A stretch of DNA of 64,000 bases, from assembly GCA_000092065.1 (NCBI GenBank), contig CP000584.1. The stretch is one strand, 5' to 3'. A program made the translations under genes and the position numbers. Within the stretch, counting starts at the first letter, position 1. Each line of letters opens with the position of its first letter. Positions 1,850-58,999 of this stretch are shown in pieces. The notes under the pieces are model-generated. The model had not been told where the DNA came from. It made no database searches and saw only the letters and a program-made list of their open reading frames with translations. The stretch comes from Ostreococcus lucimarinus (Eukaryota).

Positions 1850-2666
1850 ATGGCGAGCGTCGCGCCGCGCGCGCGATGCGGGACGATCAAGGTGCGCGAG
1901 TTCGCGCCTCGCGAGCTCGGACGGACGCGGCGTGGGCGCGCGCGGCGACGGCGCGCGACGACGTTTTGGATATCGGTTTAGATACGGCGCGAGTTCGAAC
2001 GAAGGATGCGCGCGCGTTTCGCGAACGGACGACTGACGAACGCGCCGAGCGCGCGCACAGACTATCGTGAACGCACCGACGAAGCGAGGCGCGCGAACGA
2101 CGACGCGCGCGAGTGGTAAGGGCGATGGGAAGGATCGGGTGTACATTGGCAAGGGACGTTACGTCGAAGACGACGCCAAGAAGTACGCTGGGCGCGATAA
2201 CTGGTTCACCGGCGGATGGCCGGGCGGAGAGAAGCAACTGAAGGAAGTTTTCATTCAAGAAGAAGCGGCTGCGGCCGCGCAGGCGGCGAAGGAGAGCGCG
2301 AAGAATGAGCTTCCAGAGTACGCCAAGGGCGACGATACTATTTACGTCGGCAAGGGTAAATACGTTAAAGGTGACGCGAAAAAGTTCGCAGGTCGCGATA
2401 ACTTGTTGACGGGCGGGTGGGCCGGTGGTGAGGTCGGACTGAAGGTTGGGGAGAAGCTGAAGATGAAGAAGGGTGATTTAGTCAAGGTGGCGGCGGGCGG
2501 CGGTTTCTTCGGCATGGGCGGTAAGCCCCAGCGCGTCGGCACCGTTCGCAAAGTGAACGTCAAGAAGAACGGCGATTGCACGATTGAAATCGCCGTGTTG
2601 CCGTTCGATCGCGTCGAAACCGTGGACAGTTCTCTGTGCACGCCGACCACACTGGAGGAAATGTAA
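1850..2666 (+). CDS. Conserved hypothetical protein with duplicated YxGKGxYV..DAKKxAGRDN..TGGWxGGE motif and C-terminal SH3/KOW-like segment (2 exons: 1850..1891, 2061..2666)
   Basis: Track ORF 2067..2666 starts at GTG and has no ATG. Exon 1 (ATG 1850, MASVAPRARCGTIK) ends before GTGCGCGAG and joins in phase 0 at CACAG|ACT (2061). The motif occurs twice (YIGKGRYVEDDAKKYAGRDNWFTGGWPGGE and YVGKGKYVKGDAKKFAGRDNLLTGGWAGGE). The N-terminus looks like a transit peptide. Confidence 0.7.
1892..2060 (+). other. Spliceosomal intron (GT-AG, 169 nt, phase 0)
   Basis: Donor is GTGCGCGAG at 1892. Branch-like GACGACTGACGAA lies about 24 nt before the CACAG acceptor ending at 2060. Splicing supplies the ATG that the downstream ORF lacks. 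Confidence 0.7.
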
Positions 2667-2760
2667 ACGCGTGAACGCTCGTTCTCGAATGACCGCGCCG
2701 CGACGACAGGAACCAGGGGTCTGACGCTCTCGTCCGAACTCGTCCTATCGCGAGTTTCGT

Positions 2761-2805
2761 TAATATTCAATACTTTAATATTCAATACTTTAATATTCAA
2801 TACAC
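2761..2805. repeat. AT-rich 15-bp tandem repeat x3 (TAATATTCAATACTT)
   Basis: The sequence reads taatattcaatactt taatattcaatactt taatattcaatacac. It is the only AT-rich microsatellite in the window and lies in the spacer between the 2666 stop and the 2889 ORF. Confidence 0.95.
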
Positions 2806-2888
2806 ACCGATACCGACACCACCGCGAACGATCGTACGCGTCGCCGCCGCAGCCGCCGCCTGCGCCGGTCCTCAGACGCCGGCGGTTC

Positions 2889-3266
2889 ATGCCCGCCGCC
2901 GCGCCACCGGCATCCCCTTCGACGCCGTCGGCGACGATATCTACCGCGCCCACGCACCCCGCCAACTGCTTGTGCTGCATCGGCGGCCCCGACCTGTCGT
3001 TCGAGCGCGCCGTCTTTTCCATCCTCGCATTGAAGTTGGGCTTTGAGTACGACACCGCGGCGAAGTTTATTCGTCTCTGCCGCGCCTCGCCTCGAATGGT
3101 GCTGAGTAAAGGCAAGTTTAAGGTCGCATCGAAGGTGCGAGGGAAAGATATCGACGCGCTGAGCGCGGAGGAGGTGCAGAGGGTGCAGGATGCGGTGCTA
3201 GGCGAGTACGCGGGGACGCTGGCGTTGGAAGAGAAGCAAAGAATCGACGCCGGTACGCGACGTTGA
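2889..3266 (+). CDS. Hypothetical 125-aa protein (no family recognised)
   Basis: ATG-initiated ORF. From residue 30 the composition is not Arg/Ala-biased (PDLSFERAVFSILALKLGFEYDTAAKFIRLCRASPRMVLSKGKFKV...LSAEEVQRVQDAVLGEY). The TGA lies 7 nt before the next gene's ATG. Coding status is unproven. Confidence 0.45.
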   Translation: MPAAAPPASPSTPSATISTAPTHPANCLCCIGGPDLSFERAVFSILALKLGFEYDTAAKFIRLCRASPRMVLSKGKFKVASKVRGKDIDALSAEEVQRVQDAVLGEYAGTLALEEKQRIDAGTRR

Positions 3267-3273
3267 CGTCGCG

Positions 3274-5865
3274 ATGGTGAACGCAGATGGACTACACACG
3301 GTGTGTGATTACGCACGATGGAGAGCGTGCGATCCCACGACGCGATTTCGCGAGGCGGTGCGATATTATGAAACGTTGAACGGCGCGCCGACGACGTTGC
3401 GCTTTGGCGAACTTGTCGACGAGGCGACGCGTTTGAGCGATTTTTTCGCGCCGTACGCGAAGTCAGCGGTACGTGACTCTCCGCCTTGTTGCGTGATCAC
3501 GCTTGAAGACGGCGTGGAAGTGTTCACATGCCAGTTGGCGGCGATGTTTGCAGGTATGGCGGTGTCACCGATGAGTACGCGAGATCCTGCAAAACGATTG
3601 GCGAGCGTCTTTGCAGACGCGGATGTCCGCATCGTGATCGTTCGTGATGGGGACGAGGCATTGAAGGTGGGCGAACTCACGAATGCGAAAGTTTTTACCG
3701 TCGAAGCGTTATTCAGGGCCCAACAACGATCAGCCACTGCGACCATCGCAGTAAAAGCCGACGACGCCTCGCACGTGTTTTTCACGAGTGGATCTACGGG
3801 GCGACCGAAGGGCTGCGTGGCTTCACACGCCGCGCTGTTGTCATACTGCGAAGCGAAGAACATTGCACATGAAATTGACGGTACAAGTGTTGTGTACTGT
3901 GCGAGCAGTCACATGTTTGACCCGCACTTTACGGATTTTTGCAGCGCCATCGTCGCCGGCTGTACGTTGACTTCAGCGTCGCGTGAAGTCACGTTCGCGC
4001 GACTCGGTGATGCTTTGCGAGTATCGAGCGCAACGCATTGTTTGACGACGCCTATTTTGCTCAGTTCGGTACGAGAAATTCCGAGTTTGAAATATTTGCG
4101 GCTCGTCGCGCTCGGCGGAGAAACGATGTCTAAATCGCTCGCGCAAGCTTGGCTCGATGCCGGCGTTCGAGTGGCAAACACATACGGCGTCACGGAATGT
4201 GTCGCGTATCAGACGTTCTGTGAGATAAAACAAGCGTCAAACGATGACTTGCGCACGTTGGGGGATCCACTTCCGGGTAATACATTCATATTTGCCGCCG
4301 ATCCCGGCGACGATCCGACGTTGACGGCGAAAGCGGGCGAGCTTGCAGAACTATGGATCGGCGGGCGCCAGGTCGGGAACGGATATTTGAACCGTCCTGA
4401 GCTCACATCGGCGCGTTTTAAAAATAATTTGTACCGAACGGGCGACATAGTTAAAGTTTCCTCCGACGGCCAGCACATTCTCGTCGGACGTCGCGACGAT
4501 CAAGTGAAGATAAGCGGTCAGCGCGTCGAGCTTGGAGAAGTTGAAGACGCGATTCGCCGTACGTGCAGCGCGTTCACACGTGAAGTGAAGTGTGTTCTGG
4601 CAAGTACAACAAAACAGCTCATCGCTTATTGCACTGGATCTTTCACGGACGTTGACACCGTGGTCACGGCGGCCATGCGATATGCCGTCGCCCGAGAGAT
4701 TCCTCAGCACATGGTTCCATCCATGTTTGTGTTTTTGGACGAGTTGCCGATGACGTCGACAGGAAAAGTTTCGCGCGCGGATTTGTCGCGGCGCGAAGTC
4801 GATGTGCGCGAGCAGGGATGCGCAATCAAGTTTGGTGAGTTTGGTGCGGATTTGGCACGAATATGGTCAGATGAGCTTGGTGTCGATGTAACGCACGGTG
4901 ATGCGGATTTCACAGCGAATGGTGGCGACTCGCTACGAGCGCTTAGAGTAGTTCAGCGAGTAAAAGCGCTCATCATAAAAGAAGACGTCGACGCTGGTGG
5001 TGGTACGTTCGGCGAAGCACTCGGGGCGTTTGCGCCCATCGAACTGTTACAGCGCTCACGGCTAAATGACTACGCGCGCTTTATTCGCGGCAGCGTCGAA
5101 GACTGGCCTTCAAGATATGCCACGGATTCAGACGCCGATGAAGCCGAGGCAACGCTCAGTGATATCGATATCGGCTTGCACGTATTGATTCGCGCATCAG
5201 CGGCAGGTCACGTGAGTTTGGTAAAGCTGCTCGTCGATGCAGGCGTTAGCGTCGATCCAAACTCACGCTCAACGCCGCTCCACGTGGCGTGCGCCAATGC
5301 GCGCGTCGAATGCGTGCGAGCGCTCCTTGATTCCGGTGCCTCCGTGAACGCGCTCGGTACTAGCAGAAGAACGCCGTTGATATTTGCCGTTTCTTCGCCG
5401 ATGTGTACATCTGAGCTCGTGAAGATTCTGTTGGGACGTGGCGCCGCGATTGGCGCAGTCGACGAGGACAAGCAAACTGTTTTGCACGCCGCGGCGCGGG
5501 TGGGCGCGGCGTCTTCGGTCATCGGCACCTTACTCGACGCGCAGTCTACTTCATCCGCGAAAGGTAAAGCGTCAAAAAAAGCGTTGATGTTGCACGTCAA
5601 CGCTCTCGATGTCTGGGGACGTACCGCCTTGCACTGGGCCTCGGTAAACGGCCATCGCAACGCGTGCAAATCGCTCCTCGAGCGAGACGTAGACGCATCG
5701 ATCAAAGATGTCAACGGCGAAACCGCGCGCGACATAGCCGAACGCCGCGCGCTGTGTAGCGCCCAGGAGCGCCCCAGAGGCGGTCGGCCGAGCACGTGGG
5801 GCGACATCGCCAACTTACTCGGCGGAAGCGGAGCTACGAAACACCTCAAAGCGTCTCTGGCGTAA
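3274..5865 (+). CDS. NRPS-like adenylation + thiolation (carrier) didomain protein with C-terminal ankyrin repeats
   Basis: AMP-binding core motifs are present: FTSGSTGRPKGC, TYGVTE, YRTGD and GKVSR. A phosphopantetheine-attachment motif (FTANGGDSLRALRV) follows. At least four ankyrin repeats come next (TPLHVACANARVECVRALLDSGASVN, RTPLIFA, QTVLHAAARVG, RTALHWASVNGHRNACKSLLERDVD). I saw no C, TE or R domain. Confidence 0.85.
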   Translation: MVNADGLHTVCDYARWRACDPTTRFREAVRYYETLNGAPTTLRFGELVDEATRLSDFFAPYAKSAVRDSPPCCVITLEDGVEVFTCQLAAMFAGMAVSPMSTRDPAKRLASVFADADVRIVIVRDGDEALKVGELTNAKVFTVEALFRAQQRSATATIAVKADDASHVFFTSGSTGRPKGCVASHAALLSYCEAKNIAHEIDGTSVVYCASSHMFDPHFTDFCSAIVAGCTLTSASREVTFARLGDALRVSSATHCLTTPILLSSVREIPSLKYLRLVALGGETMSKSLAQAWLDAGVRVANTYGVTECVAYQTFCEIKQASNDDLRTLGDPLPGNTFIFAADPGDDPTLTAKAGELAELWIGGRQVGNGYLNRPELTSARFKNNLYRTGDIVKVSSDGQHILVGRRDDQVKISGQRVELGEVEDAIRRTCSAFTREVKCVLASTTKQLIAYCTGSFTDVDTVVTAAMRYAVAREIPQHMVPSMFVFLDELPMTSTGKVSRADLSRREVDVREQGCAIKFGEFGADLARIWSDELGVDVTHGDADFTANGGDSLRALRVVQRVKALIIKEDVDAGGGTFGEALGAFAPIELLQRSRLNDYARFIRGSVEDWPSRYATDSDADEAEATLSDIDIGLHVLIRASAAGHVSLVKLLVDAGVSVDPNSRSTPLHVACANARVECVRALLDSGASVNALGTSRRTPLIFAVSSPMCTSELVKILLGRGAAIGAVDEDKQTVLHAAARVGAASSVIGTLLDAQSTSSAKGKASKKALMLHVNALDVWGRTALHWASVNGHRNACKSLLERDVDASIKDVNGETARDIAERRALCSAQERPRGGRPSTWGDIANLLGGSGATKHLKASLA

Positions 5866-5880
5866 ACGCGCCTCGCAGAG

Positions 5881-5885: not shown

Positions 5886-5924
5886 TTGTACATTCTAGAT
5901 AATCCCTCACGCAACGAACGCGCG

Positions 5925-12619: not shown

Positions 12620-13228
12620 ATGATGCGCGGTGGACCGTTTAAACTCCAGAACGCCGACCCCGAGGCGGCGGCGACGGAGAAAATGAAGAAGGAAGCCATC
12701 GCGCGCGTGAAATCGTGGGTCGAGGCGCGCCTGCCGAGTGAACACCTGACGAATCGCGATGCGGTGGTGGACGTGAGCGAGGTGCAGTGCGGGGACCCGA
12801 ATTGCGCGCCGATCGACGCGGTGGTGAGGATCATTTACAGGGAGTCGTGCGGGACGATCTTCGGAATTCCGTGCGAAGTGCAAGACGTGGAGGAGGAAGA
12901 CATCGAATCGCAGATGCCGCCGCCGGGAGTGATCGAGGATTGGTATCTGGGGAAGCCGACGCCGTGGCCGCCGGAACCGGAACCGCAGGAGCCGGGACCG
13001 GTGCCGACGGACGCGTTGCGGTTCGCGGTGGGCGACCGCGTACGGTGCCGCATCGGACCGGGCGAAGATGGATGGGCCGCGGGGACGGTCGTCGCGCATT
13101 GGTATCGCGGAAGCACGTGGCCGACGGGACAGTACGCACCGTATCAAGTGCAGCTCGATCGTAAGGATATGGGCAGTGGTTTGATTTTCGCGCCGTACGA
13201 CAACGATCAGTGCGTGATGAAGGAATAA
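12620..13228 (+). CDS. Hypothetical protein, 202 aa
   Basis: ATG ATG at 12620. Codon usage looks coding. The C-terminal segment is RFAVGDRVRCRIGPGEDGWAAGTVVAHWYRGSTWPTGQYAPYQVQLD...LIFAPYDNDQCV. No family was named by eye. Confidence 0.6.
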   Translation: MMRGGPFKLQNADPEAAATEKMKKEAIARVKSWVEARLPSEHLTNRDAVVDVSEVQCGDPNCAPIDAVVRIIYRESCGTIFGIPCEVQDVEEEDIESQMPPPGVIEDWYLGKPTPWPPEPEPQEPGPVPTDALRFAVGDRVRCRIGPGEDGWAAGTVVAHWYRGSTWPTGQYAPYQVQLDRKDMGSGLIFAPYDNDQCVMKE

Positions 13229-28090: not shown

Positions 28091-31000
28091 TCATCGCGCG
28101 GCGTTCAGGTAAAGTCTGTATTGCTCGCGTCGGCGCTCTTCAATTTGTTCTTGACCGCGACGACGGTACTCTTTGAGATCGCGGCACCTGGGCACGGGGC
28201 AGTCGTCCTCCATGCATCCCTTAGAATGAATTTGCAACAGCGTCCACGTTTTACGGCAGAGCTGGCACCCGCCTGCTGATTTGACCGTGCAGCTCAAGGC
28301 GTGCTTGAGCAAGTGTTTGATTTTCGGGCAGTTGCTGTTTTCGCATCGTTCTTTGCGGCATTTGCACGCGTGGAGCAAGAGTTCCATGGTTCGCTCGATC
28401 TGCGCCGCGCGGTTCTCGCGCTCGGCTTGAGACAACGCCGTGCGATCTCCGGCGGTACGACCTTGTCGCATGAGGGGGTGCTGGTGACCAGTTCTGATGC
28501 GGCAGTTGTCGCAAATATCGAAATCGGGGCACGTCTCGCAGCGCCAACCCTTTCCGGGCTCGAGCTCGCGTGAACAAACGTTGCATGATGCGACGAATGC
28601 AGGCTCAGATGGATTGTTCAAGTGATACAGCACCATCATGGTCGTATGTTTGGCGCGACGAAGCGAGTCGAACTGGAAGTGATTGCCTTGGCACAAGGAC
28701 AGGAACGCTTGACGTGTGTCAAAGAATTCGCTCTCGAGCTTTTCCTCCTCGTCCTTCTGTTCCTTCGTCAGCGTGGGAATTTCCTCACACTTTTCGCACT
28801 CGAGCTTGCGGCCAGCGTAACGTTTTTCGTTCTCTGGCATCGCATCTTCAGTCTCCTTGCATTCTTCGCAAAGCACCAAGGGTGTGCCTTCCGTCGCGTA
28901 ATAGCGGTTGGCACCGGCGATGGTTCTGCGGCAGCACAAACATTGGTGCGCAAGATGGGCGAGCATGAAGTCGTTTCTCATGTTGCTGATCGTCGTCCCG
29001 AGCTTCTTCATTAGTTCTTTATTCAGTTCAGCGTCAGCGGCGATCGTGCCACTCTTTGCCTTGGCCGCCTTGCGCGCGCTGATCTTAACCGTGGACGACT
29101 TTGTCTTCGCCTCGATGTTCTTTGCCTCCTCGAGTTCCTTCATGATGGTCGGTATCCAATCTTCCGCAATGCCGGAGAAGTAATCACCATCGAAATACGG
29201 ATACTCAGTGGCGCATCGAATATCGTGATTTTGATTGCCGAGTCGGAATTCATCGTACACGTTCGAAGTTGAAATGACGATGCCATCCTTCTGCGCCGAG
29301 CGCAACATCTTGAGGTACCACTCACGAAGCTTGTCAGCCTTTGGCGTCTTTTGCACCTTGGGGTGACAGTACAGAATGTAATCGTCTCCTTGGAACGGCG
29401 GACACGCCCAAATAAAGCACGACGTGAAGCCGCGCTGTTTGACATAGTCCAGGTACGCAATCAGAATGTTGTGATAGACGTACGTGCGCAACGCGCAGTT
29501 TTCGCCCGTGGCCACGGTGACGTTGTCCGGTCGGAAGTACTTGACAGAGTCCAAATACGAGAGGTAAATTCTTCGCCGGTTCGGTTCAGGGCACTCGTCA
29601 TCATACTCTTGCACATAAATAGCCATCAAACACACATCGGTGGCCTCAAGCTTTTGGAACAGGAGGATGACGCGCGAACGGTAAGTAAAGTGCGCCGGAA
29701 TGCCCTGTTCTTTGAAGTGGGCGTAGTAGTGCGGCTTGGTGTCCATTTGTTTGAGTGTTTGAGACACAACACGAATGGTCAAGTTCTCAGCGGTCGGGAC
29801 GTTTTCTATGGGTACGCCCAACTGCTTCGCGCGCTCCACGCGTTCCGCCGAGAGCTTCGACGCGAGGCGTTCTTCCAAAAACGTCGACATCTTTGTCTTC
29901 GGTAACGAGCTCGCCGGCTGTTGTGAAGACGGACGTTCAGCAGTAACTTGACGTTCGTTCTTATCCAACTGCGATAAGATGCAGTTTGGACACGTGAATG
30001 GCGCTTCACCGCCTTCATTGCGTCTACCGTTGAAAAGAACGCAGAGTTGGTGATACCAATCCTCGCAGTAGTCGCATTGCACCCATGGCTCCTCGAGATC
30101 GTCGTCGTTCTTCTTCTTGATGAGCGTCGCTTTCGGAAACCGTTGACCCTCGACATCGACATACCCTTGGATGGCGTTGAAGCACGGGTTACACCACGCA
30201 TCTCTTCGAGTCTCGCCCCCGAGGCTAGGCATCTGGTGGAATACTTGTCCGCGCTTGATGCGACCGACGCAACTGTAGCAGTAAAGCGGCGGTGGTTCGA
30301 ACGTCAATCGTTCAACGCCGCATGCACGGCACGAACTTTCTGTCGCGTTGATCACCGCCCGCTCAGCTTCCTTCTGAAGCTGACGAGCGCTCGGTTGACC
30401 TTGACCTTGCACCTTTTCCTTGTCGGCGAGACGCAAGGCGGCGAGATGCGTACGGATTTCTTCCGGAGTGAAGCACTCCATTAACGACGTCCCTTCGCCA
30501 CCTGGCTTGCGATCCGTTTTCAAACCGCTCGTACCCTTCACCATGAGTTGACCACGATCGAGATCGTGATCGAGCTTCATTCTCTTGTTGCCGTGCGCCA
30601 TTTGCATTTGCGCCTGTTGACGCTGCTTGAGCATGGCGTTGCGCACGGGACCGCACACCGGACACCCAGCGTCCTTGCACGTCTGATGATGCTTCAACAA
30701 CTCACGCGACGCCAAACATCGAGGATAGTTGCACTGCGTCAGCGTACACTTCAACACGTGCTCCCACAACTGCTTCGCGACGTGACAGTGCGGCGTGTAG
30801 GGGCAGTGCCCGTGTCGCGCCTGACACTTGCTCGCGTGTCGAAGGAAGAGAAGCCATCGTTGCTGTTTCACGATGTACGCCTTTCGTAACTGCTCGTCAT
30901 TGATGTCTCGCCAATTAGCAACGACACCACCCCCACCACTACCCGGTTGCTGGCGCCCGCGCATCGCCGCCTGTTGCTGTTGGGCCATCTGTTGCTGTTG

Positions 31001-31940
31001 CGCGAGCTGCTTCGCCTGCGCCGCCTGCTGCGCCTTGGTGAGCTTTTTACCCTTCGGCGGCGCCTTAGCTCGTCCCTTGGGCGCCGCCGCCGTCGCTGCC
31101 TCAGGCATCATCGAACCCACACCCTGCGTCGGAATCATCGTCCCAGGTGGCACGCCGGCCATCATTTGCGAAGATCCTCCCGCGTATTGCGATCCTTGCG
31201 CCGCCGCCGCGCCGCGCAAAATCGGCGCCCCATTCGGTAACATACCGTTACCCCCCATCATCTGTCCCGCCGCGGGTTGCGCCATATTCCCCCCTAATCC
31301 CCCTGGGAACAACGCTCCCATCTGCTGACGCGAAGCCGCCGCAGCGCTCCCGCCTCCTCTTCCGCCCTGTTGCGCGCCTTGACGAGAAATCATGATGCGC
31401 GCGACGGCTTGAAGTCGCGCCTCCAACGTCGCCTTGTCGCAATACTCATCCTACGATCGCAAAAACACCCCCACAATCCAACCGTCAGTCCTCGAACGTC
31501 ATCACCCGCGCGCGCGCGCGCCTCAACCGCCTCGTTCGTCGCGCGCGCCGATCGAAACCGCGCACCTTGCTCCGCGCTCCGCGATACACCGCCTCCTCCA
31601 ATCGCAGCACAAAGTCCGGTAGCTTGTGTTTCCACTCGTTCGTCAATTCCGGTTTCCTTTGTTTAAACACTCGCAATCTGCGCACCGTTCGCGCGTCCAC
31701 GCCGTCGTCAGTCGTCCCTTCGCCTGAGCGCGCGTTCGCGCGCGTCTTCGCGACCTAAGCCTCGTCCGCGAGATCCGCGTTCGCGCCTCCCCCCCCCGCG
31801 TCGCCTCGCGCGCCGTTCGCCTTCGCGACGCACATGTGTTGAATCAGAATCTTCCTCTGCGGGATGTCGTCGTCCGATTGCCACGTGCGCCACGAGTGCT
31901 TCGCCCCCCCGCCGTCGCTCGCGCCGTTCGCGCCCGGCAT
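28091..31940 (-). CDS. HAC: Histone acetyltransferase of the CBP/p300 (plant HAC) family; 3 exons (31940..31834, 31677..31566, 31450..28091)
   Basis: TAZ1 is RWLLFLRHASKCQ...CPVCGPV and the PHD finger is WVQCDYCEDWYHQLCV...FTCPNC. The KAT11 core reads YLSYLDSVKYFRP...RTYVYHNILIAYLDYVKQRGFTSCFIWACPP.QGDDYILYCHP. Two ZZ fingers and TAZ2 (LLLHACKCRKERCENSNCPKIKHLLKHALSC) follow. Two 5' mini-exons, found by splice signals, encode a KIX-like domain. Confidence 0.9.
31451..31565 (-). other. Spliceosomal intron (GT-AG, 115 nt, phase 0), HAC intron 2
   Basis: Minus-strand donor ...AGC AAG|GTGCGCGGT (GT at 31565-31564). Branch-like GAGGACTGACGGT. Acceptor TCGTAG| (AG at 31452-31451). The junction joins ...YRGARSK to DEYCDKATLEARLQ. 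Confidence 0.75.
31678..31833 (-). other. Spliceosomal intron (GT-AG, 156 nt, phase 2), HAC intron 1
   Basis: Donor ...CAA CAC AT|GTGCGTCGC (GT at 31833-31832). Branch-like GACGACTGACGAC. Acceptor GTGCGCAG|A (AG at 31679-31678). AT+A makes an Ile codon, giving ...RKILIQH-I-LRVFKQRKPE. Confidence 0.7.
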
Positions 31941-34650: not shown

Positions 34651-35026
34651 ACGCGCGATGTCGCGCAAGCGACCGCGCGCGACGCGCGATACGAGCGACG
34701 ACGACGCGCATCTCTCGACGGTGGTTCAAAAATCATCTTTGCAAACGGCGCGCGCGACGACGCGAAACGGCGCGAAGCGGGCGCGACGAGACGCGACGGG
34801 ACGAAAAGTGCGCGCGCGGGGGAAGTCGTCGACGGCGCCGTTGGCGCTGGCGGTGACGCACGATCGCGTGCGGACGCTGGAGGTGCGATGATTAGACGAT
34901 TGGGATGGGCGTTCGAGGCGACGGCGGCGCGCGGGTGCCCGGTTTGACGCGAGAGAACGCGCGCGCGCGAAGAGACTGACGAAGGCGCGCTGGCGTCGAG
35001 ATCGCGGACAGGAGCTAGTGGAGGAG

Positions 35027-41771: not shown

Positions 41772-43161
41772 ATGCGCGCCTGCACGCCTCGCGCGTCGAG
41801 CGCGAACGCTCCAGGCGCGCAAAACGACGAACGACGCGCGACGCGCGCGAAGACGCACCGACGACCCGCGGTGGCGTCGCCGACGATCCTCGTTCAGGGC
41901 GGCAAGGATCCGGAGACGACCACGAATGGGCTGTCGAAGAAACGACGCGCGGTGATCGAGGACATGACGTCGTTCGCGGCGGGAGAACTGAGCGGACTGC
42001 TGAAGGACCCGGACACGAATTGGCAACCGCAAGATTGGCTGCCGAATCCGGAGTCGCCGGATTTCTTGGATCAGGTGCGAGGGCGAGGGGGGGCGAGGGG
42101 ACGCGCGCGAGGGATGGTTTATCCGCGCGAGGGCGGTCGAGGGCGTTCGAACGAGACGCGACGCGGGACGCGCGAGGCGAGGTCGAGGCGCGCGCGAGAT
42201 GGGCGAGGGGGTGGGTGGAGGCGTGCGCGCGCGCGAAAACGCGGTGACTGACGAGCGCGCGAACGCGTCGCGATCGCGATAGGTGGCGGAGATTCGTAAA
42301 CGCGCGGCGAACATCCCCGACGATCTCTTCGTCGTGCTCGTCGGCGATATGATCACCGAAGAGGCGTTGCCGACGTACATGAACATGTTGAACACGCTCG
42401 AAGGAACGAAGGATAACTCTGGCGCGGATGCTCACCCGTGGGCGGTGTGGACGCGCAAGTGGACGGCGGAGGAAAACCGTCACGGCGACCTCATGAACAA
42501 GTACTTGTGGATGACGGGTAAGGTGAACATGAAGCCGGTCGAGACCACGATCCAGAAGCTCATCGGCAGCGGCATGAACCCTAAGACGGACAACAACCCG
42601 TACCTCGGTTTCGTGTACACGTCTTTCCAAGAGCGCGCGACGAAAATTTCCCACGGGAACACGGCGCGCTTGGCCAAGGAGGCGGGCGATCCGGAGTTCG
42701 CGAAGATGTGCGGCATCATCGCCGCCGACGAAGGCCGCCACGAGATCGCGTACCAGCGCATCATCGATGAAGTATTGGCGCGCGATCCCGACGGTGCCGT
42801 CCTCGCGTACGCGGACATGATGGAGAAGCAAATCACCATGCCCGCGCACATGATGTGCGACGGCCAGCACAAGGCGCGAACCGGCCGCGACCTCTTCGTC
42901 GATTTCGCCGCCGTCGCGGAGCGCACGGGCGTGTACACCGGCCACGATTACGCCGATATCATGGATCACCTCAACAAGCGTTGGGACATCGCCAACATCA
43001 CGGGTTTGGGCGGCGAGGCGGCCGCCGCGCAAGAGTACTTGATGAAGCAACCCGCTCGCATCCGCAAGCTCGTCGCTTTCGCCGAGAAGAGGGCGGCGAA
43101 GAAGCCTCCGGCCAAGGAAACCTTCTCCTGGATTTACGATCGTCCCGTCGACATCAACTAA
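41772..43161 (+). CDS. Stearoyl-ACP delta-9 desaturase (soluble acyl-ACP desaturase), 2 exons (41772..42074, 42283..43161)
   Basis: Exon 2 reads [31 protein letters not shown]...[14 protein letters not shown]...[16 protein letters not shown]...[11 protein letters not shown] (di-iron EENRHG / DEGRHE motifs). Exon 1 supplies the transit peptide ([15 protein letters not shown]...) and [18 protein letters not shown]. The junction DFLDQ|[14 protein letters not shown] restores colinearity with plant SAD. Confidence 0.9.
42075..42282 (+). other. Spliceosomal intron (GT-AG, 208 nt, phase 0)
   Basis: Donor CAG|GTGCGAGGG at 42075. Branch-like GCGGTGACTGACGAG. Acceptor CGATAG| ending at 42282. The sense strand is G-rich with several G3-G7 runs. 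Confidence 0.85.
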
Positions 43162-43404: not shown

Positions 43405-44240
43405 TTAGTTTTCGCGCGTCGGCAAGACCGCCTCGATGGCCGTCCACACCTCGCTCATGTCCTTTGCCGCGTCGATTTTCGCGACGACGGGAGAGTAGTG
43501 CTCCAAAATGGGCTTCGTTTGCGAGTGGTACGCTTCGAGGCGCGTCACGAGCGCTTCTTTCGTGTCATCGCTGCGCTGCTCGAGCTGCTCGCCAGTCTCG
43601 TCGTCAAACATGCGCTTCGGCTTGGCTTGCTTACCCGGGCACGCCTTCAGGCTCTTCGGCGGGTTGAACGTGGCGTGATACGAGCGACCGCTCGCCTTGT
43701 GCACCCATCGGCCGCAGATGCGCTTCTCCAAAAGCGAGTCCGGGACCTCGAGCGAGACGACGACGTCCACCTTCTCGCCGCGCTTCGCCAGCATCTCATC
43801 CAGCTTCTTCGCCTGCTCGATCGTCCGCGGGAACCCATCCAAAATGAACCCACGCGCGCAATCCTTCGCCGCGATTCGATCGCGAATGATCGCCACGACG
43901 ATGTCGTCCGTCACCAATCCCCCCGAATCCATCGCCGCCTTCGCGCGTCTCCCGACATCCGTCCCCGCCGCCACCGCCGCGCGCAGCATGTCTCCCGTCG
44001 CGAGCTGCGGCACGCCGAGCTTCTCCGTGATCTTCGGCGCTTGCGTTCCTGCGTCGCGCGCGTCCGTCGCGTCCGTCAGTCACCGCGCGCGCGTCGTTCG
44101 CGTCGCGCGTCGATCGCCGTCGTCTCGCGTCGCCGACGCTCGCGTCTCTCGCGTCTCTCGCGCACCCTTGCCCGCGCCCGGCGGTCCGAAGATGACGATC
44201 ACCGATCGCGGCGCGCCGCGCTTGCTCTGCCCGCCGCCCA
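43405..44240 (-). CDS. Adenylate kinase, 2 exons (44240..44165, 44048..43405)
   Basis: Exon 1 is [26 protein letters not shown] (P-loop). Exon 2 is [25 protein letters not shown]...[10 protein letters not shown]...RSDD, with a long-type LID ([14 protein letters not shown]). The track ORF 43405..44013 lacks the P-loop. Exon 1 ends in ...AAG G and joins exon 2 GA ACG, making the Gly codon GGA. Confidence 0.9.
44049..44164 (-). other. Spliceosomal intron (GT-AG, 116 nt, phase 1)
   Basis: Donor AAG G|GTGCGCGAG (GT at 44164-44163). Branch-like GCGGTGACTGACGGA. Acceptor GACGCAG| (AG at 44050-44049). Confidence 0.85.
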
Positions 44241-44307
44241 TCGCGCGGCGTCGCGTTCCGCGGCGTGCCGACGTCTGCCGACGTCACTCGTCGACGCTGA
44301 TTACGCG

Positions 44308-50392: not shown

Positions 50393-50398
50393 CGCCAA

Positions 50399-54919: not shown

Positions 54920-55876
54920 TCACACGTGACGCTTGTCACCCTTGCTCGCCGCGGACTTTTTCGCGTTCTCCGCGTTGTACACCGGGAGGCGGATGTCGTA
55001 CGTGTCCGCCGCCACGCGAAGACCGATACCTGCGCTTACGCCCGCGATGATCCGCAAAGACGGCGGCGCACCGGCTTGACGCGCGATGATGTACGCCAAC
55101 GCCCCGGTGGCGGCGGTCGTGGCGTAGATATCGGCGTACGAGTGAAAGATTCTCGTTGGCCGTTGAACTAAAATATCGCGCACGATGCCCCCAAACGTAG
55201 CCGTCATAATTCCGCACAACACCTGCGCAATCATAGGTACGCCCGCGCGTATGCCATTTTGCGTGCCGATGACGCAAAAAGCCCCGACTCCCAACGCATC
55301 GCTCGCCTCGATCCAATAATCATCATCGGTAAATCCAAACTGTTTCTTCGCGCTCTCCCAGCCGCAAAACGTCGCCAACGCCGTGCCCGCCGCGATCCAC
55401 AAGTACTCCTGCTCCTCCATCCAAAACGCCCGCCGTCCTTGACCGAGCAAAATATCTCTCACCGTACCCCCGCCCACCGCGGTGATGGTGCCGACCGCGG
55501 TGCATCCGAACGCGTCCATCCCGCTCGCCGCCGCGAGCAGGCTCCCCGTCATCGCGAACGAGCTCGTGCCAAAGTAATCCGCCAACCGTAGCGCGCCTGG
55601 GACGGTGAAGTTCGGATAGCGAGGCATACCGTCTGGATGTACCGTAGGGGCGCCCACCTGCGCATCCGCGGCGAACGAGCGCGCGTGCGCGCGCGTCCGC
55701 GGTCGTGTGTTCGCGAGCGATGACTTCACGCGTCCCGACGCGTCGAAAGATTTGCACGCGCCCGTGTTGAGCGACGCGCGCGCCGTGGACACCGCCGACG
55801 CGGAAGCAGATGACGCGAACGATGCGCGAGCGAATCCCGCGGACGCGAGGTCAGCGAGACGCTTGCGAGTGGACAT
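54920..55876 (-). CDS. UPF0126 / YadS-type (glycine-transporter, TRIC-like) membrane protein with N-terminal presequence
   Basis: The UPF0126 half-domains are duplicated, each with a GGG..RD motif (TAVGGGTVRDILLG and TATFGGIVRDILVQ). There are seven hydrophobic spans. ATG at 55876. Confidence 0.8.
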   Translation of the reverse strand: MSTRKRLADLASAGFARASFASSASASAVSTARASLNTGACKSFDASGRVKSSLANTRPRTRAHARSFAADAQVGAPTVHPDGMPRYPNFTVPGALRLADYFGTSSFAMTGSLLAAASGMDAFGCTAVGTITAVGGGTVRDILLGQGRRAFWMEEQEYLWIAAGTALATFCGWESAKKQFGFTDDDYWIEASDALGVGAFCVIGTQNGIRAGVPMIAQVLCGIMTATFGGIVRDILVQRPTRIFHSYADIYATTAATGALAYIIARQAGAPPSLRIIAGVSAGIGLRVAADTYDIRLPVYNAENAKKSAASKGDKRHV

Positions 55877-56047
55877 GACGAGCGGCGCTGTGCGGGCGGG
55901 ACGGGGCCAGCGCGAACGAACGACGCGAACGCGATCGGATTCGACAAGGCAAGATGCGCGCTATGGCGGTGATTAAATCAATTCTAGCGAAATAAATGTC
56001 AACGGTCGTGCGCACGCAGCGGCGAGAATCGAGCCTCGCGATTCAAT

Positions 56048-56077
56048 AGGCGTGAAACGTTATTACGTTTCACGCCT
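56048..56077. other. Perfect 12-bp inverted repeat (hairpin) spanning the FKBP stop codon
   Basis: The sequence is aggcgtgaaacg-ttatta-cgtttcacgcct. The arms (56048-56059 and 56066-56077) are exact reverse complements. The minus-strand TGA stop (56072-56070) lies in the right arm. Confidence 0.8.
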
Positions 56078-56777
56078 CGTCCACGTTGACGCCGAGCAAG
56101 GTCACCTTGAAGAACACGTCCGCTCCCGCGAAGGGGTGATTGGCGTCCAAAACAACTTTCTCGGCGTCCATCGCGCGCACCACCGCGGGTTGCCCGTTGA
56201 CGAGAGTCACCGTCAATCCTTCGACCAAACCTCCCTTATCCGACCACTCGGCGCGCAAGCGCGCGATTTCCTCGTGATTCGCCGGCACGCTAAATAACAA
56301 GTTCGGATCGTAATCACCCCCGCTCGCGCTCACCACCGCACTATTTCCAACGTTCAGCTTCCGCACCGCCTCATCGAACGCCTTAAACAGCGGATTTCCC
56401 ATGACGTCGCTCGCGCCGACCTCAAACGTCACCGCCTCCGTCGCCGCCGCGTCTTGCAAAACCTCCCCTTCCCCAGTCTCCACGCCGAACTGAATCTTCA
56501 CGATGTCACCGGTCACGGGAAACCCTTCGCTCGCGTCCGCGCGCGCGTCTTCGTGCACGCTCATGCGCGTGGCGAAGCCCTTTTGACCTTTTCGCACGTC
56601 TTGGAGAATGGTGCCGATGAAATCGACGTCAGGCATCTCAAACGTCTCGTCCTCCGCGCTCGCGCGACGCCGCGCCGCGCGCCCGCGCGCCGACGCCGCG
56701 CGCATCGAGCGCTTCCCCGTCGTCGTCGCGCGCGGCGCCCGGACGCGCGCGGCGCTCGACGTCGTCGTCGCGAACAT
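56070..56777 (-). CDS. FKBP-type peptidyl-prolyl isomerase, SlyD-like (with insert-in-flap domain) and transit-peptide-like N-terminus
   Basis: The sequence reads GDIVKIQFGVETGEGEVL...VTFEVGASDVMGNPLFKAFDEAVRKLNVG...VVLDANHPFAGADVFFKVTLLGV (the SlyD hallmark is D.NHPLAG..L.F.V). ATG at 56777 (MFATTTSSAARVRAP). The track extension to 57170 is antisense to GLTP. Confidence 0.8.
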   Translation of the reverse strand: MFATTTSSAARVRAPRATTTGKRSMRAASARGRAARRRASAEDETFEMPDVDFIGTILQDVRKGQKGFATRMSVHEDARADASEGFPVTGDIVKIQFGVETGEGEVLQDAAATEAVTFEVGASDVMGNPLFKAFDEAVRKLNVGNSAVVSASGGDYDPNLLFSVPANHEEIARLRAEWSDKGGLVEGLTVTLVNGQPAVVRAMDAEKVVLDANHPFAGADVFFKVTLLGVNVDEA

Positions 56778-57423
56778 GCCGAGCGTCGAGCAGTGCGGCC
56801 TCGCGCGGCAGAGCGCGCCTCGCGGCGGCATGCCGTCGCGCGTGGCGCGCGTCATCGACGCGCTCGACGCGCTCGACGCCGACGTCGAGTTCACGCGCCC
56901 CGGGGACGTGGACGCCGCGCGGTTTTGCGACGTCATGGATGCCATGCTCGAAGTCATCGCCGCGCTCGGCTTCGCGTTCGAGCTCGCGAAGGCGGACGTA
57001 TCGAAGAACGTGCGACGGATTCGAGACGTGGTTCGGGCGCGCGGCGAGGCGCGGGCGTCGCTGTTCGAGGCGATCGCGCGCGACCGCGAGGCGGGCGGAC
57101 GGGTCTGGGTGCCGGCGCTCTGGTTGCGGCGGTTCGGCGGCTTCGTCGTGGGTTTGCTCGGGGAACTCACGCGAGACGCGAGCTTGGATCTCCGGACGTG
57201 CGGGGCGAGGTCGTACGAGCGCGCGCTGAAGCCGTATCACGGGTTCGCGTTGCGAGGGGTTTTCGCGGCGGCGTTGGCGATGCCGCCGAGCAGAGCGCAG
57301 TTCTGCGCTGTGGCTGGGAGCGAGGAGGAGATGCGCGCGTGTGTGGCGAAGTTTGCGCCCGTCATGGACGCGCTCGACGGATTCTTAACGGCGGAAGGGT
57401 TGAACGACCCGACTCCGGTGTAA
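56776..57423 (+). CDS. Glycolipid transfer protein (GLTP / ACD11-like) domain protein
   Basis: The GLTP fold pattern is FCDVMDAMLEVIAALGFAFELAKADVSKNVRRI, GGRVWVPALWLRRFGGFVVGLLGEL and YERALKPYHGFALRGVFAAALAMPPSRAQF. ATG at 56776, or 56830 (MPSRVARV). Confidence 0.8.
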   Translation: MPSVEQCGLARQSAPRGGMPSRVARVIDALDALDADVEFTRPGDVDAARFCDVMDAMLEVIAALGFAFELAKADVSKNVRRIRDVVRARGEARASLFEAIARDREAGGRVWVPALWLRRFGGFVVGLLGELTRDASLDLRTCGARSYERALKPYHGFALRGVFAAALAMPPSRAQFCAVAGSEEEMRACVAKFAPVMDALDGFLTAEGLNDPTPV

Positions 57424-57497
57424 AATATTTGCGCTCAAAGCGCGTTAGAGTAGAAGTGTATTTGAAGAGCGGAACGTTTGGTTCGATTGCAAGGATT

Positions 57498-58999
57498 TTA
57501 ATCATCCATAGTGTTGTACATGGAGAAGTCTGGCATCGATGCCGATGATACCAGACCCTTCTTCATTTTTCGCATAGATGGCGGCGCGCGCAAGCCCTTG
57601 TCAAGGCCAAGCTCAGCGATTTTATCGCGTTCTTCTTCGGCTTCGCGTGCGTCGTCGTCGTCCGACTGGCCCGCGGCTTCTCGAATCTTTGATAAATCCG
57701 GCACAGAGCTAACCTTGACGAACTTGCCCTTGACTCGCGGGCGGTTGTCAGCGCATGCTTTGCGCGATTGATACCGAATCACCTTGTTGAAGTTTCGATT
57801 CTTCCTCTTTTCCTTCCATCGTTTCAATCGCTCGAGACGCGTCTGCGGCTGCGGTAACCCGGCGTACGTATCCGATCCCGAAGGTGGGCCTTCTGGAATC
57901 GAGCGTAACGCGTCAGCCATCGCAGAATGTCCATTCGCATCCCCTGCGCCGCTCGATGCGACCGTCTGATTGTCCAAATCGCTCTCGGGTTCGCGTTTGA
58001 CAGCCACCGCGCTCAGCTTCCCCGCGAGAGATTCAAAACCCATATCGCTAGACTCAGGCGATGGCGAGCCGAACGCGCCGTACGATGGATTCAATTCTAA
58101 AAACCGCACCGCAGAATCGTCCAAAATTGGACCTAAAAAGCCGCTCGACGAGGCATACTCGCCGACCCGACGTAACGCCTCGATTTCGCTCTTCGACATC
58201 CCCACCGAGTCGCTATACTTGCTTCCCGATCGCTCCCCGTCGATTTCTCGATTCACCACCCCATCCTTCGCCGCATCTTCATCATCGAGCGGGTCCCTCA
58301 AGAAGCTCTCCGGATCGATCCCATCAGCGTCAAGCTCGCCCAAATTCTCGTCCCAAAACGCTCCGTCCAACGTTTCCACCGGAAACGACGACGACGGCAT
58401 CATGGGATTACTCAAATACTCATCGCATATCCCGATCACATCATCCGTCGTCACCTCAACGTCATCGCCGTCGCCGTACGCATCGCTCATCCGTCTCGAA
58501 TCCGCATCCTCCGCGCCGTGCGCGCCGACCCCTCGCCCGTTCGTCCCGAGCGCCGTGCGCTCGTGCTTACTCGCGATCGCGTTCGCCGCGTGCACGCGCG
58601 CATCGCACGCATCGCACAGGTACGCCTGCGTCACCGTCGTTCGCACCACCGTCAGTCGTCGCGCGCGTCTTCGCGCGCGCTTTCGTCGCCGCGCGTCGTC
58701 CGAACGTCCCCGTTCGTCGTCGTCGTCTTATCGTTATCCGAAGCGCCATCCTCTCCGACCGCGCCTCGCCGCCGCGCGTCGCGCGCGCGCGTCCCGCGCG
58801 TCGTCGACGCGTCGCGAGCGCGTCGTCTCCCGGTCACCGCGCGCGCCGTCGCGCGCACCTCGTCCTGCGCGCAGTACCAACTCGCCGCGCGCCGCGCGCC
58901 TTCGGGACACGATTCGCACGCGGCGCCCGTCGCGTCGCGCGTCGCGTCCTCGGCGCGCGCGCGATCGGACGCGCTCGCGCGCGCGTCGCTCGGCGCCAT
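57498..58999 (-). CDS. CONSTANS-like B-box / CCT-domain protein, 2 exons (58999..58859, 58625..57498)
   Basis: The CCT motif is RLERLKRWKEKRKNRNFNKVIRYQSRKACADNRPRVKGKFVK. The B-box is restored only after splicing: CESCPEGARRAASWYCAQDE|AYLCDACDARVHAANAIASKHER. The track shows it as two separate ORFs (58652..58999 and 57498..58649). Confidence 0.9.
58626..58858 (-). other. Spliceosomal intron (GT-AG, 233 nt, phase 0)
   Basis: Donor GAC GAG|GTGCGCGCG (GT at 58858-58857). Branch-like GACGACTGACGGT. Acceptor GACGCAG| (AG at 58627-58626). Confidence 0.85.

What the first reader, a model, noticed from the sequence alone, without database searches (positions are those of the whole stretch)
1892..58858. 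Six introns share an almost invariant GTGCG donor and ACTGACG branch motif, all near 5' ends of genes
I found the introns by looking for missing conserved protein segments. Each gives an exact in-frame junction that restores a known motif:
- 1892-2060 (+): GTGCGCGAG...GACGACTGACGAA...CACAG
- 31833-31678 (-): GTGCGTCGC...GACGACTGACGAC...GCGCAG
- 31565-31451 (-): GTGCGCGGT...GAGGACTGACGGT...TCGTAG
- 42075-42282 (+): GTGCGAGGG...GGTGACTGACGAG...CGATAG
- 44164-44049 (-): GTGCGCGAG...GGTGACTGACGGA...ACGCAG
- 58858-58626 (-): GTGCGCGCG...GACGACTGACGGT...ACGCAG

Lengths are 115-233 nt. The branch A lies roughly 24-34 nt from the 3' splice site. All six fall within about the first 100 codons. Intron interiors are G/A-rich GACGCG-type low complexity. 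I could not see that they are copies of one element. Such rigid signals and the 5' positional bias are what intron-poor genomes (for example hemiascomycete yeasts) show. The motif pair is a practical rule for fixing gene models in this genome.
Basis: partly seen in the sequence, partly recalled or inferred. Interest (0 to 1): 0.6.

Follow-up and report, generated by a model that had tools for sequence, protein, structure and literature searches.

The report
Known Ostreococcus canonical intron signals
The six segments are genuine spliceosomal introns of the green picoalga Ostreococcus lucimarinus, and their rigid GTGCG start and ACTGACG branch motif are the splice signals already published for this genome in 2008, so the finding is correct but ordinary.

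Summary
All six segments are in the sequence and have the form GTGCG...RACTGACG...YAG. The branch A lies 24-34 nt from the 3' end. All six fall within the first 73 codons. One coordinate is off by one: the adenylate kinase intron starts at 44165, not 44164.

The window is from Ostreococcus lucimarinus CCE9901. Four of my five spliced gene models are identical to RefSeq proteins. Public assembled transcripts lack three of the introns, cut exactly at the predicted junctions: the adenylate kinase intron and both CBP-like introns. A related Ostreococcus species keeps two of the introns at the same codons with the same signals but diverged interiors.

The introns are not copies of one element. Their interiors share only the CG-rich low complexity that also fills the UTRs and 5' gene ends of this window.

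Irimia & Roy 2008 (PMC2483917) already reported all of these signals for the EST-confirmed introns outside chromosome 2 of this same genome:
- GTGCGTG donor
- ACTGAC in 87% and GACTGACG in 66.5%
- CGCAG acceptor preference
- branch-to-AG distance of 20-35 nt

Verdict: real, correctly interpreted, already known. The only small addition is a seventh candidate with the same signals in the 5' UTR of the telomerase gene (34883-35011), which is unconfirmed.

The parts
1892..2060 (+). Intron i1 (169 nt, phase 0 after codon 14). The gene encodes a 215-aa predicted plastid-type protein with no Pfam family. Signals: aag|GTGCGCGA ... CGACTGACGA (A 24 nt from the 3' end) ... CACAG.
   Evidence: Sequence read. 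The spliced model equals RefSeq XP_001417288.1. There is no in-frame ATG for the conserved part downstream of the intron. The ortholog in a related species (L055) has an intron in the same N-terminal region, with a GTACGCG donor and GGACTGACGA branch 26 nt from ACGCAG. I found no transcript contig for this intron.
31678..31833 (-). Intron i2 (156 nt, phase 2, codon 36) of the CBP/p300-like histone acetyltransferase gene (1192 aa; CDS 31940..28091). Signals: cat|GTGCGTCG ... CGACTGACGA (A 30 nt from the 3' end) ... CGCAG.
   Evidence: Sequence read. The Pfam KIX_2 match spans the junction. Logan contigs L007 and L008 encode the 1192-aa spliced product, and their alignment to the window skips exactly 31833..31678.
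31451..31565 (-). Intron i3 (115 nt, phase 0 after codon 73) of the same CBP/p300-like gene. Signals: aag|GTGCGCGG ... GGACTGACGG (A 34 nt from the 3' end) ... CGTAG. It is the only one of the six with a T-run before the 3' splice site.
   Evidence: Sequence read. The KIX_2 match spans the junction. L007 and L008 skip 31565..31451, with a 3-nt alignment ambiguity that is consistent with GT..AG.
42075..42282 (+). Intron i4 (208 nt, phase 0 after codon 37) of the stearoyl-ACP desaturase gene (329 aa). Signals: cag|GTGCGAGG ... TGACTGACGA (A 31 nt from the 3' end) ... GATAG.
   Evidence: Sequence read. The FA_desaturase_2 match runs over residues 5-321 across the junction, E = 6e-136. The spliced model equals XP_001417298.1. 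The syntenic related species L010 has an intron at the same codon with GTGCGCGA, TGACTGACGC (29 nt) and GATAG, and a diverged interior.
44049..44165 (-). Intron i5 (117 nt, phase 1 in the P-loop Gly codon 26) of the adenylate kinase gene (239 aa). Signals: agg|GTGCGCGA ... TGACTGACGG (A 27 nt from the 3' end) ... CGCAG.
   Evidence: Sequence read. The ADK domain matches from profile position 1 across the junction. The spliced model equals XP_001417553.1. Three Logan contigs from three different runs (L004-L006) carry the uninterrupted 239-aa ORF and align with exactly this segment missing. L010 keeps an intron at the same site with GTGCGCGT, AGACTGACGA (20 nt) and ACGCAG, and an unrelated interior. 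The more distant homologs L013 and L018 (66-67% aa) have no intron there.
58626..58858 (-). Intron i6 (233 nt, phase 0 after codon 47) of the B-box/CCT (CONSTANS-like) gene (422 aa). Signals: gag|GTGCGCGC ... CGACTGACGG (A 26 nt from the 3' end) ... CGCAG.
   Evidence: Sequence read. The zf-B_box match over residues 30-71 spans the junction. The spliced model equals XP_001417557.1. A relative with 93.6% nucleotide identity (L056) keeps the same donor, branch and acceptor.
34883..35011 (+). It lies in the 5' UTR of the telomerase reverse transcriptase gene, whose CDS is 35027-38497. Signals: gag|GTGCGATG ... AGACTGACGA (A 32 nt from the 3' end) ... GACAG. Alternative GTGCG donors exist at 34868 and 34808.
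   Evidence: The pattern scan and the outside-CDS scan both pick it up. Sequence read. The CDS start at 35027 equals GenBank ACH81296.1. The candidate is non-coding, so no protein test applies. I found no transcript or ortholog evidence, and the permissive pattern is expected about twice per window by chance. Unconfirmed.

Best explanation
The six segments are ordinary U2-type (GT-AG) spliceosomal introns of the nuclear genome of Ostreococcus lucimarinus CCE9901. They belong to the 'canonical' intron class of Mamiellophyceae, which occupies the intron-poor bulk of the genome.

Shown here:
- The introns are removed precisely from mRNA.
- Removal restores continuous conserved domains.
- Intron position and signals are conserved in a sister species while the interiors are not.

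Inferred from general spliceosome knowledge, not tested here:
- AG|GUGCG is recognised at the 5' splice site by U1, then by U5 and U6.
- The GACUGACG box pairs with the U2 branch-recognition sequence and bulges the A.
- The first YAG some 20-35 nt downstream (often CGCAG) is the acceptor, without a pyrimidine tract.

The rigidity of the signals and the 5' position are the pattern expected for a genome with few introns (about 0.2 per gene in this window). The interiors are unconstrained CG-rich, G-skewed low complexity, like the surrounding UTRs and 5' gene ends.
For: - Organism and annotation: the spliced models equal RefSeq proteins of O. lucimarinus CCE9901 for g1, g4, g5 and g6.
- RNA: contigs L004-L006 lack 44165..44049, and L007 and L008 lack 31833..31678 and 31565..31451. 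Genomic contigs L001-L003, L009 and L059 retain the introns.
- Protein: Pfam domains are continuous across five of the six junctions.
- Comparative: the syntenic relative L010 has introns at the same codons of the adenylate kinase and desaturase genes, with GTGCGCG and GACTGACG. Intron interiors are about 60% identical, which is the alignment floor for this composition, against 78-88% in the flanking exons. L056 and L055 keep the i6 and i1 introns.
- Specificity: outside CDS the branch box with a correctly spaced YAG occurs only at the introns plus one 5' UTR candidate.
- Literature, same genome: donor GTGCGTG, ACTGAC in 87%, GACTGACG in 66.5%, CGCAG preference and a branch-to-AG distance of 20-35 nt in 319 EST-confirmed introns outside chromosome 2 (PMC2483917).
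- Literature, Micromonas: canonical introns use AG|GTGCGT and NCTGAC (PMC3879977).
Against: - There is no transcript evidence for i1, i4 or i6. These rest on RefSeq models, domain continuity and conservation.
- The library type of the Logan runs is not stated. L004 and L005 extend into neighbouring genes, so in principle they could be intron-less genomic alleles rather than mRNA. That is unlikely: five contigs from five runs each lack exactly the predicted segments, L007 and L008 end at the gene ends, and every clearly genomic contig keeps the introns.
- The branch A is inferred from the motif and has not been mapped.
- snRNA pairing could not be examined, because no snRNA gene lies in the window.
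Confidence: 0.95

Rival explanations
1. The six are copies of a mobile intron family (introner elements, as in Micromonas pusilla CCMP1545 or the short IE-C class of Micromonas RCC299). On this reading the shared GTGCG and GACTGACG come from common descent of the insertions, not from selection on splice signals.
For: IE-C elements of Micromonas RCC299 carry the same GACTGACG box, and IE-A1/A2 carry AG|GYGCGT donors (PMC3879977). Pairwise local alignment scores of the intron interiors exceed mononucleotide shuffles, with z of 2-10.
Against: - The similarity is only CG-rich low complexity. The same 70-85% matches of 30-110 nt occur on both strands in intergenic regions and 5' gene ends across the window, for example 32.3-32.6 kb, 48.4-48.6 kb and 52.5-52.8 kb. 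These regions are full of CGCGACG-type microrepeats.
- There is no collinear alignment between any two introns, and lengths range from 115 to 233 nt.
- Orthologous introns sit at the same codons in another species with unrelated interiors. They are therefore old, positionally conserved introns, not recent insertions.
Confidence: 0.02
2. The motifs are a coincidence of a GC-rich genome, or an artefact of gene modelling, and some or all of the segments are not spliced.
For: GTGCG is very common, with 284 occurrences on both strands. ACTGACG is not over-represented overall, at 14 against 11.3. A permissive pattern scan yields about 2 hits per window by chance. The i1 junction lies in a non-conserved transit-peptide region.
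Against: - Three introns are exactly absent from transcript contigs.
- Five junctions restore continuous Pfam domains.
- All six carry the box within an 11-nt positional window, at about 1e-3 chance each.
- The signals are conserved in orthologs.
- The same statistics have been published from 319 EST-confirmed introns.
Confidence: 0.01
3. The introns are real, but the atypical rigid signals are read by a specialised or co-evolved machinery. This could be a variant U1 or U2 snRNA, or a second spliceosome distinct from the one that serves the intron-dense half of chromosome 2.
For: The +4C of GUGCG mismatches the standard U1 5' end. Irimia & Roy 2008 raised this possibility explicitly.
Against: A later survey found a single U1 candidate with the standard pairing region in all five Mamiellales genomes examined, including O. 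lucimarinus, so there is no compensatory change (bioRxiv 10.1101/2022.06.08.495308). Only single copies of the snRNAs were reported in O. tauri. Nothing in this window bears on the question; the Rfam scan was empty.
Confidence: 0.02

Closest known systems
Canonical (non-chromosome-2) introns of Ostreococcus lucimarinus CCE9901, as characterised by Irimia & Roy 2008 (PMC2483917)
   Same: It is the same genome. The donor matches (GTGCGTG consensus; here GTGCG in 6 of 6). The branch box matches ((G)ACTGAC(G); here ACTGACG in 6 of 6 and GACTGACG in 6 of 6). The branch-to-AG distance matches (20-35 nt published; 24-34 here). The CGCAG acceptor preference matches (3 of 6 here). The intron-poor context matches.
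   Different: Nothing substantive. Position +6 is C in 4 of the 6 introns here, against T in the published consensus. The published genome-wide frequencies (87% and 66.5%) show the motif is strong but not invariant.
Canonical introns of Micromonas (RCC299, CCMP1545), Verhelst et al. 2013 (PMC3879977)
   Same: AG|GTGCGT donor, NCTGAC branch motif, low intron density, and only partial sharing of intron positions between species.
   Different: In Micromonas the branch motif is reported 43-52 bp upstream of the acceptor. Here it is 24-34 nt.
Introner elements (Micromonas IE-A to IE-D; IE-C carries GACTGACG)
   Same: The splice-signal motifs are the same (GYGCGT, GACTGACG).
   Different: Introners are multi-copy elements with collinear sequence similarity along their whole length. 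These six share only the signals and low-complexity composition, and they are positionally conserved across species.
Introns of hemiascomycete yeasts (GTATGT ... TACTAAC)
   Same: Few introns per genome, near-invariant donor and branch box, 5' positional bias. The 5' bias of yeast introns is stated from my own knowledge.
   Different: The motifs themselves differ: GTGCG against GTATGT, and ACTGAC against ACTAAC, which gives a G.U instead of an A-U pair with U2. These introns are GC-rich (66-75%) and purine-rich rather than AT-rich. The resemblance is convergent, not homologous.
BOC1 introns of the low-GC half of the big outlier chromosome in Mamiellophyceae
   Same: Same organisms, and the GT-AG rule applies.
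   Different: BOC1 introns are short (about 40-65 nt), AT-rich and dense, have weak GTRNGT donors and no discernible branch motif. None of these features applies to the six introns here.

Membership tests
U2-type GT-AG spliceosomal introns | GT at the 5' end and AG at the 3' end, with removal leaving an intact reading frame | tested here: met
   All six are GT...YAG. Splicing gives uninterrupted ORFs of 215, 1192, 329, 239 and 422 aa.
U2-type GT-AG spliceosomal introns | Absent from mature mRNA | tested here: met
   Met for i2, i3 and i5: transcript-like Logan contigs L004-L008 lack exactly these segments. Not testable for i1, i4 and i6 with the data reachable. For those three, RefSeq models and Pfam continuity stand in.
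U2-type GT-AG spliceosomal introns | Branch adenosine within a YTRAY-like box about 18-40 nt upstream of the 3' splice site, used for lariat formation | tested here: inconclusive
   The CTGAC box is present at 24-34 nt in 6 of 6 introns. Actual branch usage needs lariat mapping, which cannot be done here.
Canonical Mamiellophyceae / non-chromosome-2 Ostreococcus intron class | Donor (AG|)GTGCGT-type | tested here: met
   GTGCG in 6 of 6. The upstream exon ends in AG in 4 of 6, with GG in i5 and AT in i2. This matches PMC2483917 and PMC3879977.
Canonical Mamiellophyceae / non-chromosome-2 Ostreococcus intron class | Extended branch box GACTGACG, 20-35 nt from the AG, with a CGCAG acceptor preference | tested here: met
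   GACTGACG in 6 of 6, distances of 24-34 nt, CGCAG in 3 of 6. Compared with the published values.
Canonical Mamiellophyceae / non-chromosome-2 Ostreococcus intron class | Located in the intron-poor, roughly 60% GC bulk of the genome, not in the low-GC intron-dense outlier region | tested here: met
   The window has about 33-35 genes and only 6 CDS introns in 5 of them. GC is 0.51-0.66. The low-GC blocks are giant uninterrupted ORFs, not intron-dense genes. The chromosome number of the 930,724-bp record was not established.
Introner elements | Many copies with collinear sequence similarity along the element | tested here: not met
   Pairwise alignments and blastn of each intron against the window give only short low-complexity matches, on both strands and mostly outside introns.
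Introner elements | Recent, lineage-specific insertion, so positions are not shared with relatives | tested here: not met
   i4 and i5 are at identical codons in the syntenic relative L010, which has about 78% nucleotide identity. The i6 intron is kept in L056, and an i1 counterpart is present in L055.
U12-type (minor) introns | RTATCCTT donor and a TCCTTAAC branch box 10-15 nt from the 3' splice site | tested here: not met
   The donors are GTGCG and the branch box is CTGAC at 24-34 nt. The U12 consensus is stated from established knowledge.
BOC1 introns | Short (about 40-65 nt), AT-rich, no branch motif | tested here: not met
   Lengths are 115-233 nt, GC is 66-75%, and the branch box is strong.

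The most novel reading that the evidence does not exclude
Two minor readings are not excluded.

(a) The telomerase gene has a previously unrecognised 5' UTR intron (34883-35011) with full canonical signals. If so, the motif rule also finds non-coding introns that protein-based annotation misses.

(b) The interiors of these 5'-proximal introns are the same fast-evolving CG-rich microrepeat sequence as the adjacent UTRs and promoter-proximal regions. This leaves open that canonical Ostreococcus introns persist, or even arise by intronisation, preferentially in this 5' low-complexity zone, with only about 20 nt of signal under constraint.

Neither would change the known picture of Mamiellophyceae splicing much.
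Probability: 0.3. Interest if true: 0.2.

Novelty: already known. Interest (0 to 1): 0.07.

Why it matters
It matters little beyond annotation hygiene. The GTGCG / GACTGACG / CGCAG signature of Ostreococcus introns outside the outlier half of chromosome 2 has been published for this genome since 2008, and it has been used in the debate on why intron-poor genomes evolve rigid splice signals. Four of the five gene models are already in RefSeq with these introns.

There are three practical points:
- The CBP/p300-like gene's two-intron 5' end was not seen among the named NCBI entries that were listed (only 15 of the cluster's 123 members were shown). It is now supported by transcript contigs.
- A possible 5' UTR intron in the telomerase gene can be checked with RNA-seq.
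- Prokaryote-style gene calls on marine metagenomes systematically truncate these picoalgal proteins at the first intron. Examples here are adenylate kinase at 202 instead of 239 aa, the desaturase at 292 instead of 329 aa, and the CCT protein at 383 instead of 422 aa.

Tried and rejected
- **Introner hypothesis.** Pairwise alignment of the interiors and blastn of each intron against the window gave only CG-rich low complexity. Rejected.
- **A 34-nt mini-intron at 3253-3286.** It has a GTACGC...TTGAC...ACGCAG form and would join the conserved 125-aa ORF (2889-3266) in frame to the AMP-binding/ankyrin ORF. The related species L055 has no such signals there; it has an overlapping ATGA stop/start instead. 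The 125-aa ORF also exists as a separate product on 484 contigs. Rejected.
- **CACCTGACGA at 12749 as a branch site.** It lies inside a coherent ORF (12620-13228, coding ...EHLTNR...). Rejected.
- **ACTGACG at 15055.** It encodes an EF-hand loop (DTDGSG). Rejected. The other ACTGACG sites (866, 10836, 20700, 35788) lie within the coding ORFs of my gene list. The site at 13712 has no YAG in range. The site at 39900 is on the opposite strand to the desaturase CDS that covers it.
- **An apparent ORF-free low-GC block at 59.6-64 kb.** This was an artefact of the ORF listing not reporting ORFs that run off the window. It is the 5' part of a giant gene.
- **Rfam scan of the window** for snRNAs or other RNAs found nothing.
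- **Look-up of the NCBI record via P0073** returned nothing, so RefSeq gene coordinates could not be read directly. Identity to RefSeq rests on exact protein matches.
- **Transcript evidence for i1, i4 and i6.** The exact spliced proteins are held only by NCBI/UniRef-type sources, not by Logan. No protein covering exon 1 appeared among the homologs of g1 or g6.
- **Not used.** The third protein-database search and the structure tools were not used, because the answer did not depend on them.

Full report
**What is in the sequence**

All six segments are present as described. Each starts with GTGCG. The branch A lies 24, 30, 34, 31, 27 and 26 nt from the intron's 3' end. Each ends in YAG: CACAG, CGCAG, CGTAG, GATAG, CGCAG and CGCAG.

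Lengths are 169, 156, 115, 208, 117 and 233 nt. The fifth intron begins at 44165, not 44164. The upstream exon ends in AG in four cases. Phases are 0, 2, 0, 0, 1 and 0, and the introns follow codons 14, 35 (+2 nt), 73, 37, 25 (+1 nt) and 47. The '5' end of the gene' statement is therefore correct.

Sense-strand composition is G 40-51%, T 4-22% and GC 66-75%. The positive G-C skew has the same sign as that of coding regions in this window, so it is not specific to introns.

**Are the introns real?**

Splicing at the stated junctions gives five uninterrupted proteins. Pfam domains run across the junctions without a break:
- KIX_2 over residues 19-81 of the CBP/p300-like protein, which spans two junctions
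- FA_desaturase_2 over residues 5-321 (E = 6e-136)
- ADK from profile position 1, with the P-loop GPPGAGKGT restored
- zf-B_box over residues 30-71

The first gene has no Pfam family and its junction lies in a transit-peptide-like N-terminus. 'Restores a known motif' does not apply there. However, the conserved part of that protein has no in-frame ATG of its own.

Exact-sequence look-ups show the window is Ostreococcus lucimarinus CCE9901, from a 930,724-bp chromosome record. My spliced models are identical to RefSeq XP_001417288.1 (g1), XP_001417298.1 (desaturase), XP_001417553.1 (adenylate kinase) and XP_001417557.1 (CCT/B-box).

The doubly spliced 1192-aa CBP-like protein is held only by Logan assemblies. 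Two contigs from two runs (L007, L008) align to the window in three blocks: 32177-31834, 31677-31566 and 31450-27991. Both introns are therefore excised exactly. Three further contigs from three other runs (L004-L006) carry the 239-aa adenylate kinase ORF and lack exactly 44165-44049. Contigs that are clearly genomic keep the introns (L001-L003, L009, L059).

In total, three introns have RNA-level support. The other three have RefSeq models. Two of those (i4, i6) also have domain continuity, and all three have orthologous introns in relatives.

**More than chance?**

The motifs alone are not rare in this GC-rich DNA. GTGCG occurs 284 times on both strands. ACTGACG occurs 14 times against 11.3 +/- 3.1 simulated. 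A permissive full-pattern scan finds 7 sites against 2.1 +/- 1.4.

The signal lies in the coincidence with independently defined junctions. Outside coding sequence, RACTGACG followed by a YAG at 24-34 nt occurs only at the six introns and at one further site upstream of the telomerase CDS. The remaining ACTGACG sites are coding, lack an acceptor, or lie on the strand opposite a CDS. I found no broken ORF or other sign of an intron without the motif among the roughly 33-35 genes of the window. I did not re-annotate every gene with homology evidence.

**Comparative evidence**

A syntenic metagenome contig from a related Ostreococcus species (L010, about 78% nucleotide identity) has introns at the same codons of the adenylate kinase and desaturase genes. 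The adenylate kinase intron has GTGCGCGT, AGACTGACGA and ACGCAG. The desaturase intron has GTGCGCGA, TGACTGACGC and GATAG.

The interiors are unrelated. For example, a GTC repeat replaces a GAGACGCG repeat, and identity is about 60%, which is the floor for this composition. The flanking exons are 78-88% identical.

A relative with 93.6% nucleotide identity keeps the CCT-gene intron with all its signals. The g1 ortholog in a species with 71% protein identity has an intron in the same N-terminal region, but with a GTACGCG donor, so the G at +3 is not invariant. More distant adenylate kinase homologs (66-67% aa) have no intron at that site.

**Introner test**

Interior-against-interior alignments and blastn of each intron against the window give only 30-110-nt matches at 70-85% identity. 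These fall on both strands and mostly in intergenic regions and 5' gene ends. Those regions are full of CGCGACG-type microrepeats. No two introns align collinearly.

**What is already known**

Irimia & Roy 2008 (PMC2483917) analysed this same genome. Among 319 EST-confirmed introns outside chromosome 2 they found:
- ACTGAC in 87.2% and GACTGACG in 66.5%
- an 'atypical consensus GTGCGTG' at the 5' splice site
- a preference for CGCAG at the acceptor
- branch-to-AG distances peaking at about 20-35 bp

They contrasted it with the weak signals of the intron-dense half of chromosome 2.

Verhelst et al. 2013 (PMC3879977) report AG|GTGCGT and NCTGAC for canonical Micromonas introns. They also note that the IE-C introners carry the Ostreococcus-type GACTGACG.

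A 2022 preprint (10.1101/2022.06.08.495308) searched five Mamiellales genomes, including O. lucimarinus. [quoted passage not shown]

The general 5' bias of introns in intron-poor genomes is textbook knowledge (my own knowledge; not checked here).

**Mechanism**

- Shown: precise excision, GT-AG ends, and conserved donor and branch boxes at a fixed distance from the acceptor.
- Inferred from the general U2-type mechanism: U1, then U5 and U6, recognise the 5' splice site. U2 pairs with GACUGACG and bulges the A, with a G.U pair where yeast has A-U. The first suitable YAG downstream is then chosen. There is no pyrimidine tract in five of the six introns.
- Not testable here: actual branch usage and the snRNA sequences. 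The Rfam scan of the window was empty.

**Extra candidate**

34883-35011 (+) carries gag|GTGCGATG, AGACTGACGA with A 32 nt from the 3' end, and GACAG. It ends 15 nt before the ATG of the telomerase CDS, which equals GenBank ACH81296.1. It may be a 5' UTR intron. About two permissive-pattern hits per window are expected by chance, and I found no transcript or ortholog evidence, so I rate it at roughly even odds.

**Verdict**

The novelty is nil: this is the published canonical intron signature of this very genome, and most of these introns are already annotated.

Noticed in passing
window 34883-35011 (+): A seventh segment with the full signal set (gag|GTGCGATG ... AGACTGACGA ... GACAG, branch A 32 nt from the 3' end). 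It lies just upstream of the telomerase reverse transcriptase start codon at 35027 and may be a 5' UTR intron. No transcript or ortholog evidence was found.
   Followed up: partly
window 2889-3266 and 3274-5865 (+); L055 1355-1729 and 1729 onward: A conserved 125-aa ORF ends 8 nt before the ATG of the 863-aa AMP-binding/ankyrin ORF. In a related species the two ORFs overlap by ATGA. This looks like a bicistronic or uORF-like pair conserved between species. A 34-nt in-frame 'mini-intron' that would join the two ORFs is not conserved and was rejected.
   Followed up: partly
window 15588-24512 (+) and 59330-64000 (+, runs off the window): The two low-GC blocks (about 0.50-0.53, against about 0.62 elsewhere) are each a giant uninterrupted gene. 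One is 2,974 aa. The other is at least 1,557 aa here and 4,063 aa in a relative with 93.6% nucleotide identity. The second has a signal-peptide-like N-terminus and a PPPSPPPP tract, and no Pfam match in the fragments tested. The ORF listing does not show it because it runs off the window end.
   Followed up: partly
window 50392-50399: The stop codon of the ABCG transporter ORF (ends at 50392) and the first ATG of the malic enzyme ORF (50399) on the same strand are 6 nt apart. Other gene calls use a start 13 codons later. Either way the spacer between two full-size genes is extremely short.
   Followed up: no
window 2760-2803: A perfect three-copy 15-bp AT-rich tandem repeat (TTAATATTCAATACT) lies in the spacer after gene g1. 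It stands out in an otherwise GC-rich region.
   Followed up: no
L060 10456-11559, against window about 54,890: A 99%-identical metagenome contig carries an extra 367-aa Gly_transporter-family gene next to the YeiH-like gene (54920-55876). The window and contig L059 lack it. This is a presence/absence variant in natural O. lucimarinus populations.
   Followed up: no
window 43405-44241, 41964-43161 and 57498-58999, and their metagenome counterparts: Prokaryote-style gene calls on metagenome and Logan contigs truncate these algal proteins at the first intron: ADK 202 instead of 239 aa, desaturase 292 instead of 329 aa, CCT protein 383 instead of 422 aa. Some calls instead extend spuriously into the intron (224, 409 and 265 aa). 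This is a systematic error for picoeukaryote genes in such catalogues.
   Followed up: partly
L058 1150-1700: The CCT-gene ortholog in a more distant relative (55% aa identity, 64% coverage) shows no B-box exon and no GTGCG/CTGAC intron in the 350 nt upstream of its ORF. The B-box exon plus intron may be absent or relocated in that lineage.
   Followed up: no
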